A DNA stretch of 32,000 nt from Bdellovibrionales bacterium (GCA_963692945.1 OY843585.1:660001-692000); one strand, 5' to 3'; numbered from the stretch's first letter, positions 13,405-24,878 are shown. Notes: generated from the letters alone by a model not told the origin. Numbers and translations: made by a program.

Positions 13405-13830
13405 ATGTTATTAACAGATTCTTGTATTTTTGAAGAAATTAAAGCAGAAGTTAATGCTTTACCGGGTAAGCTCAATTTTAAAATTGGAGAGGCTGCTAAA
13501 ATACTTGGATTAGAACCTCATGTTTTACGTTATTGGGAAGAAGAGTTTAGTCTTTTAAAACCTAAAAAATTTTCAAACAATCAAAGGCTTTACTTTAGAA
13601 AAGATATGGAAATTTTATTTTTGATTAAAATTTTACTTTATGAGGAGAAATTAAAAATCAAAGGTGTGCGTAAGTATTTACCACAATTTTATAATCAATT
13701 TAAGGAAAACAAAATAAAAGAAGTTAAAACTATCAGCCCTCAAAAAGATATTATAAAAAAAGAGGTTAAAAGTCTTTTAAAAGAAATATCCTCCTTGAAA
13801 TCTCAAATAGGTGATGATGGGTTTCTCTAA
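13405..13830 (+). CDS. MerR-family transcriptional regulator
   Basis: N-terminal winged HTH (FKIGEAAKILGLEPHVLRYWEEEF) followed by a coiled-coil region. The last 6-7 codons lie inside a 30-nt direct repeat (see findings). Confidence 0.8.
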   Translation: MLLTDSCIFEEIKAEVNALPGKLNFKIGEAAKILGLEPHVLRYWEEEFSLLKPKKFSNNQRLYFRKDMEILFLIKILLYEEKLKIKGVRKYLPQFYNQFKENKIKEVKTISPQKDIIKKEVKSLLKEISSLKSQIGDDGFL

Positions 13831-14085
13831 ACTCTAGTTCGGTTACTTAGATATTTTCTTACTCTTATTTTAACGAGATTTGAAGAACTTACCCATATGC
13901 GAAAAACAGTAAGTTTTTTCTATACAAAAACCAGAGTTGCGAAAACCAGTAGGTTTTCTCTATGTTAAAACTTTTATTTTTCACGAGATTTGAAGAGTGT
14001 CCCCTTTTACGATGAAAAGCTCGTGAAAAATAAAAGTTCACACACTAGAGTTTTGTAAATAGAGAAAACCTACTGGTTTCATAAG
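13811..14085. repeat. Palindromic repeat element copy R1 (mosaic of modules)
   Basis: It shares about 170 nt of near-identical sequence with 15921-16119. It contains the AAACTCTAGTTC terminus (13829-13840) and the long arm GGTTACTTAGATATTTTCTTACTCTTATTTTAACGAG. It also holds two tandem GCGAAAACCAGTARGTTTT modules, the core hairpin, and an outer 20-bp inverted repeat (13943-13962 / 14060-14079). Confidence 0.9.
13969..14038. other. Core hairpin of the repeat family: perfect 19-bp stem plus a 32-nt loop conserved at three loci
   Basis: AACTTTTATTTTTCACGAG (13969-13987) is the exact reverse complement of CTCGTGAAAAATAAAAGTT (14020-14038). The loop ATTTGAAGAGTGTCCCCTTTTACGATGAAAAG is identical at 16048-16079 and 24794-24825. 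Confidence 0.9.
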
Positions 14086-15810
14086 TTATTTTTCAAAAAC
14101 TTTTGAGCAATAGGGCAATCTTTGTATGGCTGATTTGTAAATCCATTTAAAGGATTTTTTTAAGTCTCTCTCTACTCCCTCACCCTTATAATACATTTTT
14201 CCCAACTTATATAACTCATATTGAGCATAAAAAAAGTTTCGCAGAGCTGATTCGTAAAACCATTTAAAGGATTTTTTTAAATTTCTCTCTACTCCCTCAC
14301 CCTTATAATACATTTTTCCCAACTCATATTGAGCATAAGGAAGGTTTCGCAGAGCTGATTCTTGAATCCATTTAAAGGATTTTTTTAAGTTTCTATTTAC
14401 TCCTAAACCATTATAATACATTTTTCCCAATTCATATTGAGCATAAGAAAAGTTTTGCAGGGCTGATTTTTGAAACCATTGAAAAGATATTTTTAAGTCT
14501 CTCTCTACTCCCTCACCATTATAATACATTTTTCCCAATTCATATTGAGCATAAGAAAAGTTTTGCATGGCTGATTCGTGAAACCATTTAAAAGATTCTT
14601 CTAAATTTTGCTCTACTCTCTCACCTTTATAATACATTTTTCCCAATTCATATTGAGCAAGAGGATGGTTTTGCATGGCTGATTTGTGAACCCATTTAAA
14701 GAATTTTTTAAAATTTCTTTCTACTCCCTCACCCTTATAATACATTTTTCCCAAGTAATATTGAGGAATAGGATGGTTTTGCATGGCTGATTTGTGAAAC
14801 CATTTAAAAGATTCTTCTAAATTTTGTTCTACTCCATCACCATAATAGTATTGCCTTCCCAATTCATATTGAGCAAGAGGATGGTTTTGCATGGCTGATT
14901 TGTGAATCCATTTAAAAGATTCTTCTAAATCTTGCTCCACTCCCTCACCACTAGAATACCTCATTCCCAACTCATGTTGAGCAATAGGAAAGTGTTGCAT
15001 GGCTGATTTGTAAAACCATTTAAAAGATTCTTCTAAATCTTGTTCTACTCCATCACCATAATAGTGACGTCTTGCCAGCTCATATTGAGCAAAAAAATTG
15101 TTTTTATGAGCAGAATCTTTAAATTGTTTAAAAGATTTCTCTTTTACATGGACTAAATTTTTCCTCGTTACAGTTTCTCCTATATCACCAGCAATAAGAT
15201 CTCTTAGATGTTTTATCTTTATTATTGATACACCATAAGAAGTCCCCTCAAAAAACACTCCAACAACATGTCCTTCACTATCTAAAGCGGGACTACCACT
15301 TGCACCCTTTAAAGAAAAATGATTTACAAAATAAGAATACTGATAAGCATCCTCATGGTAAATATTTCCTATTTTTTCAATTCTTTTAAAAGAACCAGAA
15401 GGATAACTATATGTAAAAAGATTTTCACTTATTTCCACTGGGTTCTCTCTTATGCTGAGATAATGACTTGAAGATTCTTCCGTTTCAAGAATGGCTAAAT
15501 CATATAAAGCAGATAGAGCTAGAATTTTCTTTATCCGAAAGACAGATGAATTGTCTTTTTGAAGTAAACGAATATGTTTTATATCAGAGTCTTGCAGATT
15601 TTCTATAACATGAAAATTAGTCACAAAATATTTTGAATCTATAAAAAATCCAGTCCCCCGATTAAAAGAAGTTTCTATACGCCATATAGATTTTTCTGCT
15701 TGTAAAGGATGAGATTCAAGAACTTCAGTTGATTGATGAGCAGATAGCTCATTTTGAGCTGTTGCTAGAATAGAAAAACTCAATAAAAAAAGAACAATAA
15801 AAAATTTCAT
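14086..15810 (-). CDS. Secreted trypsin-like (S1 family) serine protease fused to nine C-terminal Sel1-like repeats
   Basis: Start moved to ATG 15810 (MKFFIVLFLLSFSILATAQN, a classic signal peptide); the track start at 15900 is a TTG. Catalytic-triad contexts are TNFHVIEN (His), LYDLAILE (Asp) and KGASGSPALD (Ser). Nine 36-aa units of the form AQYELGKMYYKGEGVERNLKKSFKWFxxSA are Sel1/SLR-type. Confidence 0.85.
   Translation of the reverse strand: MKFFIVLFLLSFSILATAQNELSAHQSTEVLESHPLQAEKSIWRIETSFNRGTGFFIDSKYFVTNFHVIENLQDSDIKHIRLLQKDNSSVFRIKKILALSALYDLAILETEESSSHYLSIRENPVEISENLFTYSYPSGSFKRIEKIGNIYHEDAYQYSYFVNHFSLKGASGSPALDSEGHVVGVFFEGTSYGVSIIKIKHLRDLIAGDIGETVTRKNLVHVKEKSFKQFKDSAHKNNFFAQYELARRHYYGDGVEQDLEESFKWFYKSAMQHFPIAQHELGMRYSSGEGVEQDLEESFKWIHKSAMQNHPLAQYELGRQYYYGDGVEQNLEESFKWFHKSAMQNHPIPQYYLGKMYYKGEGVERNFKKFFKWVHKSAMQNHPLAQYELGKMYYKGERVEQNLEESFKWFHESAMQNFSYAQYELGKMYYNGEGVERDLKISFQWFQKSALQNFSYAQYELGKMYYNGLGVNRNLKKSFKWIQESALRNLPYAQYELGKMYYKGEGVERNLKKSFKWFYESALRNFFYAQYELYKLGKMYYKGEGVERDLKKSFKWIYKSAIQRLPYCSKVFEK
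14113..15090. repeat. Nine tandem ~108-bp coding repeats (Sel1 units) with long near-identical nucleotide runs
   Basis: Recurrent CCATTTAAAAGATTCTTCTAAATYTTGYTCYACTCC and CATTTTTCCCAAYTCATATTGAGCA blocks at about 108-bp spacing. The last unit has a 3-codon insertion (YELYKLGK). Confidence 0.85.
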
Positions 15811-15920
15811 AACATTAAAATCTTTCTTTTTTCCTAATAATATTAAAAAAAATAGAGATGCATTATGATCGAAAAAATAAGAAAATACCATTTTTTTCAA
15901 TGAAAATGAATTTTTTTCCT

Positions 15921-23914: not shown

Positions 23915-24603
23915 GCCGATTTTTTTATAGGCTGAGCCTTAGGAATAAAAAAAGAAATGGTTGTTTCTTTTTTATCTTTGTTTGAGTGAATGCTGAGAGA
24001 ACCACTGTGACTTTCAATAATCATTTTTGAAATTGTAAGACCAAATCCTGTATCTTTTAGAAAAAAAAGATTTTCTTTATTTGATTTAGAAAATAGATTT
24101 TTAATATTATTTTCAATTTCTCCTTGATTTGTAATGAAACATTCAAATCCTTCTTCTTTTAATTTGTAATCTATTAAGACAGTTGAGTTTTTAGGAGAGA
24201 ACTTAATAGCATTAGACAATAAGTTTTCTAAAGCTTGAGCAAGCCAAGTTGGATCTATAAAAGATTCAAACTCCAAGTCAGAAAGCACTTTTAAAGTGAT
24301 ATTTTTTTCTAGAGTAAGCAGTTGAAAGTTTTTTAAAACTTTTAAAATGATTTTATTCCAAGGGTGCCATTCAAGGTTTATAAGATCTTTCTTCTCTTTA
24401 ATTATTTGTAAATCCAGATGGTTGCAAATAAAATTAGTCATGTGATTGATTTCATCTTGCATTAAGGCGATGAGTTCTTTATCTTTTTTTGATTTACAAT
24501 TTTTTTCTAAGAGATGTATAGCTAGTTTTAAAGAGCTTAAGGGTGTTTTTAATTCATGACTAAAAAGAGTTATAGGTTCAATTTTTAGTTTTTTATTTTT
24601 CAT
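23911..24603 (-). CDS. Minimal histidine kinase core (DHp + HATPase_c only); no sensor, TM or adjacent response regulator
   Basis: H-box FSHELKTPLSSL starts at residue 14. N-box is LLSNAIKFSP and G2-like box is KDTGFGLTISK. Only 230 aa. Confidence 0.8.
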   Translation of the reverse strand: MKNKKLKIEPITLFSHELKTPLSSLKLAIHLLEKNCKSKKDKELIALMQDEINHMTNFICNHLDLQIIKEKKDLINLEWHPWNKIILKVLKNFQLLTLEKNITLKVLSDLEFESFIDPTWLAQALENLLSNAIKFSPKNSTVLIDYKLKEEGFECFITNQGEIENNIKNLFSKSNKENLFFLKDTGFGLTISKMIIESHSGSLSIHSNKDKKETTISFFIPKAQPIKKSA

Positions 24604-24684
24604 TGATTAGATTCCCTCTAAATTTTATCGGAAAAAAGAGATAAAAACTAAAGTTAATTCTTTTTTTTAGATAAAAGTCTTGGT

Positions 24685-24878
24685 ACAAAACTCTAATGTG
24701 TGAACTTTTATTTTCTGAAAACCACTTTGCGAAAAACAGAAGTTTTTCTCTAGTTCAAACATAAGCCTGTTAAGTAACTCTTATTTTAACGAGATTTGAA
24801 GAGTGTCCCCTTTTACGATGAAAAGCTCGTTAAAATAAGAATGAGAAAAATATCTAAGTAACTGAACTAGAGTTTTGT
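24685..24878. repeat. Palindromic repeat element copy R3 (194 bp) with 11-bp perfect terminal inverted repeats and a variant-stem core hairpin
   Basis: ACAAAACTCTA (24685-24695) and TAGAGTTTTGT (24868-24878). The hairpin is TCTTATTTTAACGAG (24779-24793) / CTCGTTAAAATAAGA (24826-24840) around the identical 32-nt loop. The left part is an inverted copy of the R1/R2 right arm (TGTGTGAACTTTTATTTT). Confidence 0.9.

What the first reader, a model, noticed from the sequence alone, without database searches (positions are those of the whole stretch)
13829..24878. About 11-kb accessory block of secreted proteins inserted between the ihfA-merR and grxD housekeeping genes, delimited by the repeat elements
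Everything between merR and grxD differs in character from the flanks.
- 8 of 10 genes encode signal-peptide proteins, and most have no recognisable family.
- The block concentrates every tandem or micro-repeat in the window: the 108-bp, 55-bp, 18/180-bp and 7-bp repeats, a gene remnant and a 35-bp palindrome.
- It is bounded by inverted AAACTCTAG / CTAGAGTTT termini at 13829 and 24878.
- It bundles a targeting protease, exported-looking decarboxylases, a beta-helix protein, Cys-rich small proteins and a minimal kinase.

My inference is an exported interaction or virulence, predation-type or surface-remodelling island with contingency-style regulation. I cannot match it to any described system.
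Basis: inference. Interest (0 to 1): 0.65.

Follow-up and report, generated by a model that had tools for sequence, protein, structure and literature searches.

The report
Patchwork variable gene slot for exported proteins
The 11-kb block is a real variable region full of exported-protein genes, but it was assembled piecemeal at one gene junction in a small, AT-rich Bdellovibrio-like bacterium, so it is a fairly ordinary genome hot spot and not a single imported island.

Summary
The sequence facts are mostly right, but the idea of one island bounded by inverted termini is not. Five relatives keep the order dnaJ-dnaK-relA-pheST-ihfA-merR ... kinase-grxD-HNH-topoVI. In the two most distant of them, merR and the kinase are convergent neighbours, -4 and +15 nt apart. 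The kinase is therefore core, and the variable DNA is 13831-23910.

- **Relatives:** one holds a single unrelated gene in the slot. The closest holds only p214, one decarboxylase and the Cys-rich gene.
- **Window-only content:** the trypsin-Sel1 gene, the second decarboxylase, the beta-solenoid gene and the p148-p747 pair.
- **Composition:** it matches the flanks (GC 30.7% against 31.8%). There is no integrase, transposase or tRNA.
- **Termini:** the "bounding" ends belong to two of three separate 190-260-bp palindromic MITE-like repeats. Their ends supply the last codons of p214 and grxD.
- **Origins:** the trypsin-Sel1 gene is one of at least five paralogs in the same genome. p148-p747 is a conserved two-gene cassette that also occurs in unrelated contexts.
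- **Signal peptides:** by heuristic, 7 of 8 variable genes have them, against 4 of 17 flank genes (p = 0.004).

My verdict is a stepwise-built plasticity slot for secreted proteins, with no evidence that the genes work as one system.

The parts
13405..13830 (+). merR-family regulator gene. It is core and forms the left edge of the variable slot. Its stop codon overlaps the first bases of repeat element A.
   Evidence: Pfam MerR_1 E = 1e-17. Orthologs 59-79% identical follow ihfA in five relatives.
13829..14085 (.). Palindromic MITE-like repeat element, copy A. Its ends are AAACTCTAG ... CTAGAGTTT, and it has an internal hairpin core ACGAGATTTGAAGAGTGTCCCCTTTTACGATGAAAAGCTCGT.
   Evidence: It shares 95% identity over 170 nt with copy B.
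14086..15810 (-). Exported trypsin-like serine protease fused to 9 Sel1 repeats. The ATG at 15810 gives the MKFF... signal peptide, although the ORF is open up to 15900. The gene is specific to the window at this locus.
   Evidence: Pfam Trypsin_2 E = 5e-15 and Sel1 E = 3e-84 with 9 stretches. Four paralogs, 60-67% identical, lie on the same 1.56-Mb contig. No homolog sits at the merR locus of any relative.
15921..15939 (+). Duplicate of the last roughly 6 codons and stop of merR (GTGATGATGGGTTTTTCTAA), lying directly before element B.
   Evidence: Positions 13811-13840 match 15921-15950 at 96.7%.
15939..16192 (.). Repeat element copy B. Its right end and the left end of copy A form a 53-nt inverted repeat (13829-13881 / 16140-16192, 87%) that brackets the protease gene. 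Its end supplies codons K-L-stop of p214.
   Evidence: (fold z = -4.5).
16184..16828 (-). p214, an exported protein of unknown family with 8 conserved cysteines. Compared with its orthologs it is truncated by 11-15 aa where the repeat element ends.
   Evidence: Orthologs are 59-63% identical at the same position in L081 and L082 only. No Pfam or NCBIfam hit. The single-sequence AF2 model was unusable, pLDDT 34.
16895..17068 (.). A 55-bp tandem repeat, 3.2 copies at 96% matches, in the divergent p214/decarboxylase promoter region. Each unit carries an AAGAATTGATTATTCTT palindrome.
17081..18463 (+). odc1, a fold-type III PLP-dependent decarboxylase (ODC/DAPDC-like). It has a signal peptide, an N-terminal Cys and a C-terminal ...GC.
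   Evidence: Pfam Orn_Arg_deC_N E = 3e-44. It falls below every NCBIfam equivalog cut-off. The catalytic Lys, HVG, GGG, EPGR and Cys motifs align to 2plj. It belongs to a lineage-restricted clade in which the members with a signal peptide share these terminal cysteines.
18475..19746 (+). odc2, a tandem duplicate of odc1. It lacks the signal peptide and both terminal cysteines, and it has a TTG start.
   Evidence: 72% aa identity to odc1, dN/dS 0.35. The closest relative L081 has a single copy.
19743..20384 (+). Exported beta-solenoid protein with YdcK-type hexapeptide repeats. Its start overlaps the odc2 stop.
   Evidence: Pfam B_solenoid_ydck E = 1e-15, NCBIfam YdcK/Svx partial matches. Signal peptide. 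Absent from the loci of relatives.
20458..20516 (.). Perfect heptanucleotide microsatellite (AGGCTAA)x8.4, lying 38 nt upstream of the p148 start and downstream of a promoter-like site (20426-20455). It is a candidate slipped-strand switch.
20554..21000 (+). p148, a small exported protein and the first gene of a conserved two-gene cassette.
   Evidence: Homologs 29-32% identical lie immediately upstream of the p747 homolog in L090 and L091.
21000..23243 (+). p747, a large exported, predicted all-helical protein and the second gene of the cassette. After the signal peptide comes a Gly/Gln-rich tract, followed by invariant cysteines and a conserved Gly/Ser-rich hydrophobic segment.
   Evidence: An exhaustive search of 1.84 billion representatives found only 12 relatives, 25-34% identical. 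Alignment. AF2 pLDDT 51.6, all helix. No PDB, Pfam or NCBIfam match.
23262..23357 (+). Remnant copy of the 3' part of p747 (80% identical to 22751-22846), a scar of a partial tandem duplication.
   Evidence: (family D11).
23375..23409 (.). Perfect 35-bp palindrome (TATATTTTTTGTGAAAA A TTTTCACAAAAAATATA) upstream of the promoter of the Cys-rich gene. It may be an operator.
   Evidence: The promoter-like site at 23436-23463 is conserved in L081, but the palindrome is not.
23480..23914 (+). cys144, a small exported Pro- and Cys-rich protein of unknown family.
   Evidence: One ortholog, 54% identical, at the same position in L081. No family hit.
23911..24603 (-). Soluble minimal histidine kinase (HisKA + HATPase_c, no sensor or transmembrane segment). 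It is a core gene and the true right edge of the variable slot.
   Evidence: Pfam. Orthologs 39-73% identical lie next to grxD in L081, L083, L084 and L085.
24684..24878 (.). Repeat element copy C in the kinase-grxD spacer. The spacer is 263 nt here against 98-152 nt in relatives. The element's end ACAAAACTCTAG encodes the last residues T-K-L-stop of GrxD.
   Evidence: (fold z = -3.8).
24867..25187 (-). grxD, a monothiol glutaredoxin. It is core, and its C-terminus has been altered by element C.
   Evidence: Pfam. The C-terminus reads ...SEFMTKL* here, against ...FIES*, FIKK*, FAEK* and FVEK* in relatives.

Best explanation
The region is a genome plasticity slot, not one island. In this lineage of small (about 1.1-2.2 Mb), AT-rich, Bdellovibrionota/Oligoflexia-like bacteria, merR and a soluble histidine kinase were originally convergent neighbours. 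In the window's lineage that 3'-3' junction has filled up stepwise with about 10 kb (13831-23910) of genes, nearly all for Sec-exported proteins.

**Shown**
- The layers have different ages.
  - p214, one decarboxylase and the Cys-rich gene are shared with the closest relative.
  - The trypsin-Sel1 gene, the second decarboxylase, the beta-solenoid gene and the p148-p747 cassette are specific to the window.
- The material comes from within the genome or from similar genomes. Composition is native, and the protease is one of at least five paralogs in the same genome.
- Local duplication is active. The evidence is the tandem odc1/odc2 pair, a p747 fragment, a 55-bp repeat x3.2, and repeat elements A and B at 95% identity.
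- Short palindromic MITE-like repeats sit at gene 3' ends and bracket the protease gene. They rewrite the last codons of p214 and grxD.

**Inferred**
- The palindromic repeats serve as recombination or transposition substrates that brought in or duplicated the protease unit.
- A convergent junction tolerates insertions because no promoter is disrupted there.
- The genes are independently expressed cassettes that diversify the periplasmic, surface or secreted protein set used in contact with a host or prey. They are not parts of one machine.
- The p148-p747 cassette may be switched on and off by slippage of the heptamer repeat.
For: - **Conserved flanks, variable content.** In L083 and L085 merR and the kinase are -4 and +15 nt apart. 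L084 has one unrelated signal-peptide gene. L081 has three genes (p225, one decarboxylase, cys130). L082 has the p214 ortholog followed by an unrelated 716-aa membrane protein.
- **Divergence.** Against L081, most flank proteins are 80-91% identical. Block orthologs are 54-64% identical, the same range as exported flank proteins (omp350 63%, p196 62%).
- **Native composition**.
- **No mobility genes, tRNA or plasmid/phage similarity**.
- **Paralog origin of the protease.** P0190-P0193 lie on the same 1,561,448-bp contig, are 60-67% identical, and share even the leader upstream of the start codon.
- **Independent p148-p747 cassette.** The same gene pair occurs in L090 and L091 between unrelated genes.
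- **Decarboxylase at other loci in two other genomes: a second contig of the assembly that carries L082 (L087), and a lineage-unassigned genome (L088/L089)**.
- **Duplications**.
- **Repeat elements.** There are three modular copies with inverted ends, strongly structured (z = -4.5 and -3.8). None occurs in the loci of relatives. Their ends supply K-L-stop to p214 and GrxD. A duplicated merR tail precedes copy B. A 53-nt inverted repeat brackets the protease gene.
- **Signal-peptide enrichment**, p = 0.0044.
Against: - Only six genomes were compared, and the rest of the window's own genome could not be read. I therefore could not show that the repeat elements are dispersed or mobile, or that they flank the other protease paralogs.
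- No target-site duplication is evident.
- For the genes specific to the window, gain here and loss in L081 are equally parsimonious on present data.
- Signal peptides rest on a heuristic, not a trained predictor.
- Nothing shows expression, export or function. "Independent cassettes" is argued from separate distributions, and co-regulation within the block is not excluded. For example, odc2 and the solenoid gene overlap, and the neighbouring merR and kinase could regulate the block.
Confidence: 0.65

Rival explanations
1. One reading: a single horizontally acquired 11-kb island, inserted between merR and grxD and bounded by the inverted AAACTCTAG/CTAGAGTTT termini.
For: - The outer ends are a 29-nt inverted repeat at 97% complementarity.
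- Block content is absent from the more distant relatives.
- Exported proteins are enriched.
Against: - The kinase, which lies inside the proposed island, is conserved next to grxD in all four relatives whose contig reaches it.
- Three block genes are present in L081, which lacks the repeats.
- The termini belong to separate 190-260-bp elements, each with its own inverted ends, and a third copy lies inside the block.
- GC and GC3 match the flanks.
- There is no integrase, transposase or tRNA.
Confidence: 0.05
2. An ancestral multigene region eroded by differential loss. On this view the window keeps the fullest version, and the relatives, which have reduced genomes, have deleted most or all of it.
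For: - The lineage has small genomes of 1.1-2.2 Mb, so deletion bias is plausible.
- The window carries gene remnants (the p747 fragment and the merR tail).
- For genes specific to the window, loss in L081 is as parsimonious as gain.
Against: - The three more distant relatives have an empty or unrelated slot. In two of them merR and the kinase overlap or abut cleanly (-4 and +15 nt), with no remnants.
- L082 and L084 carry different, unrelated genes in the slot.
- The protease has close paralogs in the same genome.
- p148-p747 sits in unrelated contexts elsewhere.
- Copies A and B are 95% identical, and the 55-bp repeat has 96% matches, which indicates recent gain or duplication.
Confidence: 0.15
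3. A coordinated, phase-variable surface or secretome locus (a contingency island). On this view the simple repeats and tandem repeats switch a functionally linked set of host- or prey-interaction proteins, under control of the neighbouring MerR regulator and orphan kinase.
For: - A perfect (AGGCTAA)x8.4 repeat lies 38 nt upstream of p148.
- A homologous cassette in L091 has a C15 tract directly after the start codon.
- A 55-bp x3.2 repeat lies in a divergent promoter region.
- A 35-bp palindrome lies upstream of cys144.
- The products look exported.
Against: - Only one true microsatellite exists. The other "repeats" are coding periodicities or duplication scars.
- L090 has no such tract.
- No length polymorphism data exist.
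- merR and the kinase are conserved whether or not the slot is filled, so they are not dedicated regulators of it.
- The genes have separate evolutionary distributions.
Confidence: 0.12
4. An assembly artefact. On this view the repeats caused chimeric joining of unrelated segments in a metagenome-assembled contig.
For: The three repeat copies and the paralogous protease genes are the kind of sequence that can mislead assemblers. The genome appears to come from a metagenome.
Against: - Both flanks are syntenic with five relatives.
- The inner order p214, decarboxylase, Cys-rich gene, kinase matches L081.
- The contig is 1.56 Mb.
Confidence: 0.03

Closest known systems
Regions of genome plasticity, or genomic islets, at conserved intergenic hot spots. 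This comparison rests on my own knowledge of the concept.
   Same: Conserved syntenic flanks, with gene content that differs between close relatives. The slot accumulates exported, fast-evolving accessory genes and shows local duplications.
   Different: It has none of the hallmarks of a classical genomic island: no integrase, no tRNA or att site, and no compositional deviation. Part of the content comes from paralogs within the same genome.
Small non-autonomous palindromic repeats such as Neisseria Correia elements, Rickettsia palindromic elements, and pneumococcal BOX/RUP or enterobacterial ERIC elements. This comparison rests on my own knowledge.
   Same: - They are 190-260 bp, non-coding, have terminal inverted repeats and fold strongly.
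- They have a modular build.
- They sit at gene ends and overlap coding 3' termini, altering the C-terminal residues of p214 and GrxD.
   Different: - The sequence is unrelated to any Rfam family.
- No target-site duplication is seen.
- The genome-wide copy number is unknown.
- No match in JGI metagenome contigs to a 22-mer from the element's hairpin core.
Periplasmic fold-type III PLP enzymes, for example the Vibrio cholerae broad-spectrum racemase BsrV
   Same: odc1 and its closest homologs combine the alanine-racemase-fold PLP domain with a Sec-type signal peptide. BsrV shows that a PLP enzyme of this fold can work in the periplasm (PMC7890096).
   Different: - odc1 is a decarboxylase-type member (ODC/DAPDC-like), not a racemase.
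- Its substrate is unknown.
- Its export is only predicted.
- The tandem copy odc2 has lost the signal peptide.
Simple-sequence contingency loci, that is phase variation by slipped-strand mispairing as in Neisseria, Haemophilus and Campylobacter. This comparison rests on my own knowledge.
   Same: A perfect heptamer repeat lies just upstream of an exported-protein operon. A homopolymeric C15 tract sits in the 5' coding region of a homologous gene in another genome.
   Different: No evidence of length variation. The repeat's position relative to the real promoter is unknown. It applies to one cassette, not the whole block.
Expanded Sel1-repeat effector families of host-associated bacteria, for example Legionella Sel1 proteins. 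This comparison rests on my own knowledge.
   Same: A multi-copy family of exported proteins with Sel1 repeats, in which the repeat number varies: 9 in the window copy against 4-6 in its paralogs.
   Different: Here the Sel1 array is fused to a trypsin-like serine protease domain with a plausible His/Asp/Ser triad (read by eye from the sequence). No secretion system or host is known.

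Membership tests
Classical genomic island (horizontally acquired) | Present in some relatives and absent from others at a conserved locus | tested here: met
   The slot is empty in L083 and L085, and its content differs in L084, L081 and L082.
Classical genomic island (horizontally acquired) | Base composition or codon usage deviating from the host genome | tested here: not met
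   GC is 30.7% against 31.8%. GC3 of the block genes lies within the range of the flank genes.
Classical genomic island (horizontally acquired) | Integrase, transposase or other mobility gene, and insertion at a tRNA/tmRNA gene or att site with flanking direct repeats | tested here: not met
   No tRNA or tmRNA gene. No mobility domains in any block ORF. The outer repeats are inverted and belong to separate small elements.
MITE-like / Correia-like palindromic repeat | Short (under about 300 bp), non-coding, with terminal inverted repeats and a stable fold | tested here: met
   Three copies of 190-260 bp with ends (AC)AAAACTCTAG / CTAGAGTTT(TGT). Fold z-scores are -4.5 and -3.8.
MITE-like / Correia-like palindromic repeat | Many dispersed copies in the genome and a target-site duplication | not testable with these tools
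   - Only the 32-kb window of this genome is readable. It holds three copies plus a possible end remnant at 2425-2447.
- No target-site duplication is seen by eye.
- Look-ups of the window genome returned nothing.
Composite, cargo-carrying transposable unit (13829-16192) | Cargo gene bracketed by long inverted repeats and flanked by a duplicated target | tested here: inconclusive
   A 53-nt inverted repeat at 87% brackets the protease gene. A 30-nt direct repeat that includes the merR tail lies at 13811-13840 and 15921-15950. However, the geometry is not that of a simple target-site duplication, and no transposase is known.
Fold-type III PLP-dependent decarboxylase (ODC/DAPDC/ADC family) | Orn_Arg_deC_N domain above the Pfam threshold, with the catalytic Lys and the HVG, GGG, EPGR and Cys motifs | tested here: met
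   152 and 156 bits against a cut-off of 23.4. The motifs align to the lysine/ornithine decarboxylase 2plj.
Specific decarboxylase equivalogs (LysA, SpeA, NspC, DokD) | Score above the NCBIfam equivalog cut-off | tested here: not met
   The best match is lysA at 162 bits against a cut-off of 298. All others are far below their cut-offs.
Two-component sensor kinase system | HisKA + HATPase_c kinase with a sensor input and an adjacent response regulator | tested here: not met
   The kinase core is present. It has no transmembrane or sensor segment. No response regulator is found in the window or at the loci of relatives.
Contingency (phase-variable) locus | Hypermutable simple-sequence repeat in the promoter or 5' coding region | tested here: met
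   (AGGCTAA)x8.4 lies 38 nt upstream of p148. A C15 tract lies in the 5' coding region of the L091 homolog.
Contingency (phase-variable) locus | Repeat-length polymorphism that switches expression | not testable with these tools
   No population or read data are available.
Anti-phage defence system or secretion-system island | Matches to known defence or secretion-machinery proteins | tested here: not met
   PADLOC gives only generic protease-domain and HNH hits. Pfam and NCBIfam find no secretion-system components.

The most novel reading that the evidence does not exclude
Two components may be new biology in a barely studied lineage of small-genome Bdellovibrionota-like bacteria.
1. p148-p747 may be a phase-variable, two-gene secreted system. 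It pairs a small exported partner with a large helical, Cys-rich protein that has a conserved Gly/Ser-rich hydrophobic segment. It could be a membrane-active toxin or adhesin with its chaperone or immunity partner.
2. There may be a clade of Sec-exported, disulfide-stabilised fold-III PLP decarboxylases that act on amino or diamino acids, or on peptidoglycan-derived substrates, in the periplasm or outside the cell.
Probability: 0.15. Interest if true: 0.6.

Novelty: new member of a known kind. Interest (0 to 1): 0.33.

Why it matters
The result gives a clean example of how a reduced, AT-rich genome renews its secreted-protein repertoire. The genome fills a tolerant convergent-gene junction with paralog copies, tandem duplicates and small cassettes, helped by short palindromic repeats, and it does not import a compositionally foreign island.

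The result also flags three things to test in an uncultured lineage:
- a rare two-gene exported cassette, with only 12 relatives among 1.84 billion representative proteins;
- a clade of PLP decarboxylases that carry signal peptides;
- a new family of palindromic repeats that rewrites gene 3' ends.

None of this shows a virulence or predation system.

Tried and rejected
- **Look-ups of window-genome proteins.** They are not on record, so the rest of the 1.56-Mb genome, including the other protease paralogs and further repeat copies, could not be read.
- **JGI metagenome scans.** A 22-mer from the repeat core gave 0 hits. The p747 profile gave no relatives.
- **Rfam, with permissive thresholds.** Nothing was found on the repeat elements.
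- **PADLOC.** No defence system.
- **Plasmid and phage megablast of the block.** No match.
- **AF2 of p747 with an 11-sequence alignment.** pLDDT was 51.6, all helix, too weak for a fold search.
- **AF2 of p214 from the single sequence.** pLDDT was 33.8, unusable.
- **Profile searches of p747 and p148 against PDB sequences.** Only chance-level hits.
- **Naming the organism.** Accession and text searches and cluster names gave nothing. The only indication is that PheT relatives at 43-53% identity are labelled Oligoflexia, Bdellovibrionaceae or Bdellovibrio.
- **Idea that p214, the decarboxylase and the Cys-rich gene form a conserved module.** Rejected, because the decarboxylase has different neighbours in L087 and L088.
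- **Idea that the 716-aa gene in L082 or the 216-aa gene in L084 are diverged p747 or p214.** Rejected by phmmer.

Full report
**1. What is in the window**

The window has about 31% GC and carries, in order:
- the 5' part of an SLT-type transglycosylase gene (minus strand, running off the window start);
- an M48 peptidase;
- dnaJ, dnaK and relA/spoT;
- an outer-membrane beta-barrel gene;
- pheS and pheT;
- an IHF/HU gene and merR;
- the block under study;
- grxD and a small HNH gene;
- topoisomerase VI subunits B and A;
- three genes with signal peptides;
- aconitase.

There are no tRNA genes. PheT relatives at 43-53% identity carry the names Oligoflexia, Bdellovibrionaceae or Bdellovibrio. 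The window's own contig is 1,561,448 bp, and relatives sit on contigs of 1.1-2.2 Mb. The organism is therefore an uncultured, small-genome, Bdellovibrionota-like bacterium. I could not name it.

**2. Checking the observation**

Two of the "repeats" are only coding periodicity. The 108-bp unit is a 36-aa Sel1 repeat, present nine times. The 18-bp unit is the hexapeptide of a YdcK-type beta-solenoid.

The non-coding or scar repeats are:
- a 55-bp x3.2 array in the divergent p214/decarboxylase promoter region;
- a perfect (AGGCTAA)x8.4 tract 38 nt upstream of p148;
- a 96-nt remnant of the 747-aa gene;
- a perfect 35-bp palindrome at 23375-23409.

By a hydrophobicity and cleavage-site heuristic, seven of the nine intact genes start with a Sec-type signal peptide. 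The exceptions are the second decarboxylase and the kinase. With the kinase counted among the flanks, that is 7 of 8 against 4 of 17, one-sided Fisher p = 0.0044.

Composition does not set the block apart. GC is 30.7% against 31.8%, and GC3 is alike. Only the 4-mer distance is slightly raised, partly because of the internal repeats.

**3.

A protein search with PheT found relatives at 83, 82, 67, 65, 64 and 57% identity. Their loci were fetched as L081 to L086. The five closest keep the order dnaJ-dnaK-relA-OMP-pheS-pheT-ihfA-merR ... kinase-grxD-HNH-topoVI.

Between merR and the kinase each genome holds something different.

| Locus (PheT identity) | Content of the merR-kinase slot |
|---|---|
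| L083 (67%) | Nothing; the convergent genes overlap by 4 nt |
| L085 (64%) | Nothing; the genes are 15 nt apart |
| L084 (65%) | One unrelated gene with a signal peptide |
| L081 (83%) | p214 ortholog (59%), a single decarboxylase (60-64%), Cys-rich ortholog (54%) |
| L082 (82%) | p214 ortholog (63%), then an unrelated 716-aa membrane protein, where the contig ends |

The trypsin-Sel1 gene, the second decarboxylase, the solenoid gene, p148 and p747 have no counterpart at this locus in any relative.

The kinase is therefore core and the slot is variable. The variable DNA runs from 13831 to 23910. It was filled in layers and not in one event.

**4. The "bounding" repeats**

The termini at 13829 and 24875/24878 are the outer ends of two separate elements, A (13829-14085) and C (24684-24878). 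A third copy, B, lies at 15939-16192.

- Each is 190-260 bp, modular and non-coding. Each ends in (AC)AAAACTCTAG and its complement, and each contains a long hairpin.
- B and C fold far better than shuffled controls, with z = -4.5 and -3.8.
- They match no Rfam family. They are absent from all fetched loci of relatives, and a 22-mer from the hairpin core found no match in JGI metagenome contigs.
- They sit at gene 3' ends and rewrite them.
  - The end of B supplies K-L-stop to p214, which is 11-15 residues shorter than its orthologs.
  - The end of C supplies T-K-L-stop to GrxD, where relatives end in ES, KK or EK.
  - The merR stop codon overlaps the end of A.
- A and B are 95% identical over 170 nt. 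B is preceded by a copy of the last six codons of merR. The left end of A and the right end of B form a 53-nt inverted repeat around the protease gene.

This is the behaviour of small palindromic MITE-like repeats, comparable by my own knowledge to Correia or Rickettsia palindromic elements. They mark one sub-insertion, the protease unit, and not the whole block.

**5. Origins of the parts**

- **Protease.** It has four paralogs at 60-67% identity on the same contig. These share even the translated leader upstream of the start codon and the C-terminal motif. They carry 4-6 Sel1 repeats, against 9 in the window copy. The window copy therefore looks like a duplicate from within the genome, with an expanded repeat array.
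- **Decarboxylases.**
  - They are fold-type III PLP enzymes with the catalytic Lys and the HVG, GGG, EPGR and Cys motifs intact, but they fall below every NCBIfam equivalog cut-off.
  - They belong to a clade of about 30 sequences, seven of them on contigs larger than 1 Mb. Of the twelve homologs read, six carry a signal peptide; these six all have a Cys near the N-terminus, and five end in ...GC.
  - odc2 is a tandem duplicate that begins after the signal peptide. It has lost both cysteines but remains under constraint: 72% identity, dS 0.49, dN/dS 0.35.
  - In two other genomes (a second contig of the assembly that carries L082, and a lineage-unassigned one) the decarboxylase sits at other loci with other neighbours, so it is not tied to p214 or to the Cys-rich gene.
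  - A periplasmic PLP enzyme of this fold has a precedent in the Vibrio racemase BsrV (PMC7890096).
- **p747.**
  - It has only 12 relatives among 1.84 billion representative proteins, at 25-34% identity.
  - All ten relatives aligned start with a signal-peptide-like hydrophobic N-terminus.
  - The aligned relatives share invariant cysteines and a conserved Gly/Ser-rich hydrophobic segment.
  - In the two relatives whose context could be read (L090, L091), the gene is immediately preceded by a p148 homolog (29-32% identity), in unrelated neighbourhoods. p148-p747 is thus a self-contained two-gene cassette.
  - In L091 the p148-like gene has a C15 tract right after its start codon. In the window the heptamer tract lies just upstream. 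L090 has neither. This is suggestive of slipped-strand switching for this cassette only, and it is unproven.

**6. Best explanation**

The convergent merR/kinase junction is a plasticity slot. It has accumulated independent cassettes for exported proteins through paralog insertion associated with palindromic repeats, tandem duplication and cassette insertion. All of this material has native composition.

I infer that the products diversify the periplasmic, surface or secreted protein set used in interaction with a host or prey. The reasons are that this lineage's genomes are rich in Sel1, ankyrin and orphan genes with signal peptides, and that exported proteins in the flanks diverge as fast as the block orthologs.

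Nothing indicates a single machine or pathway. There is no secretion system, no defence system and no mobility gene.

**7. Rivals**

- A single bounded island is contradicted by sections 3 and 4.
- Differential loss from an ancestral block cannot be excluded for the window-specific genes. It is disfavoured by the clean empty junctions, by the unrelated fillers in L082 and L084, and by the recent duplications.
- A coordinated contingency island has support only at one cassette.
- Misassembly is unlikely, given the synteny on both sides and within the block.

**8. Novelty and score**

As a kind of feature this is ordinary: a variable islet with small palindromic repeats. It contains unstudied families, namely p214, cys144, the p148-p747 cassette and the decarboxylase clade with signal peptides. 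It also contains a new repeat family that rewrites gene ends.

Noticed in passing
window 25648-28808: Topoisomerase VI subunits B and A, a type IIB enzyme typical of archaea and plants, are encoded here. They are conserved at 81-91% identity in all four relatives whose locus reaches them, which makes them the best-conserved genes of the neighbourhood. In the window, Top6B has a roughly 80-residue Lys-rich C-terminal tail that the tblastn matches to relatives do not cover.
   Followed up: partly
window 28895-31197: A second variable slot lies between topoVI-A and aconitase. The window has three genes with signal peptides (p236 with a lipobox, p196 and p302). L081 has only the p196 ortholog, and in L085 aconitase follows directly in the opposite orientation. 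Gain and loss of exported-protein genes is therefore not unique to the merR junction.
   Followed up: partly
window 2425-2447: AAAAACTCTAGTCAGATATTTCT, in the M48 peptidase/dnaJ intergenic region, resembles the end of the repeat element (AAACTCTAGTTC..TTAGATATTTTCT). It may be a solitary end remnant outside the block.
   Followed up: no
window 23375-23409: A perfect 35-bp palindrome containing TGTGA-N7-TCACA lies about 30 nt upstream of a promoter-like site (TTGACT-16-TACAAT, 23436-23463) for the Cys-rich gene. The promoter is conserved in L081, but the palindrome is not.
   Followed up: partly
L091 5517-5531: A homopolymeric C15 tract lies directly after the start codon of the p148-like gene, where it encodes PPPPP. 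The contig has 36-42% GC. It is a classical candidate for phase variation.
   Followed up: partly
window 25289-25570; L081 17766-18042; L083 3273-4637: The small HNH endonuclease gene between grxD and topoVI-B is conserved in the relatives but appears split or frameshifted in L081, where tblastn gives two pieces. L083 carries an extra 454-aa HNH gene inserted between dnaK and relA.
   Followed up: no
L087 (GCA_029782575.1, contig JARPSI010169696.1): In a close relative the decarboxylase lies in another cluster of orphan genes with signal peptides. That cluster includes three tandem paralogs of about 145 aa, a paralogous trypsin-Sel1 gene (32% identical) and an ankyrin-repeat gene. The assembly has more than 140,000 contigs, so it may be a host or metagenome assembly.
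   Followed up: partly
L084 6404-7687 and 18830-21886; L083 20009-22418: Relatives carry other lineage-specific insertions in the same neighbourhood. L084 has an ankyrin-repeat gene between relA and the OMP gene and two Sel1/TPR genes after topoVI. L083 has at least four tandem TraB/PrgY/GumN-family paralogs.
   Followed up: no
window 17081-18463 and homologs P0123-P0127, P0132: The decarboxylases with signal peptides share a conserved Cys shortly after the predicted cleavage site, and five of the six homologs end in ...GC. The homologs without a signal peptide, and odc2, lack both. This suggests a disulfide specific to the exported forms.
   Followed up: partly
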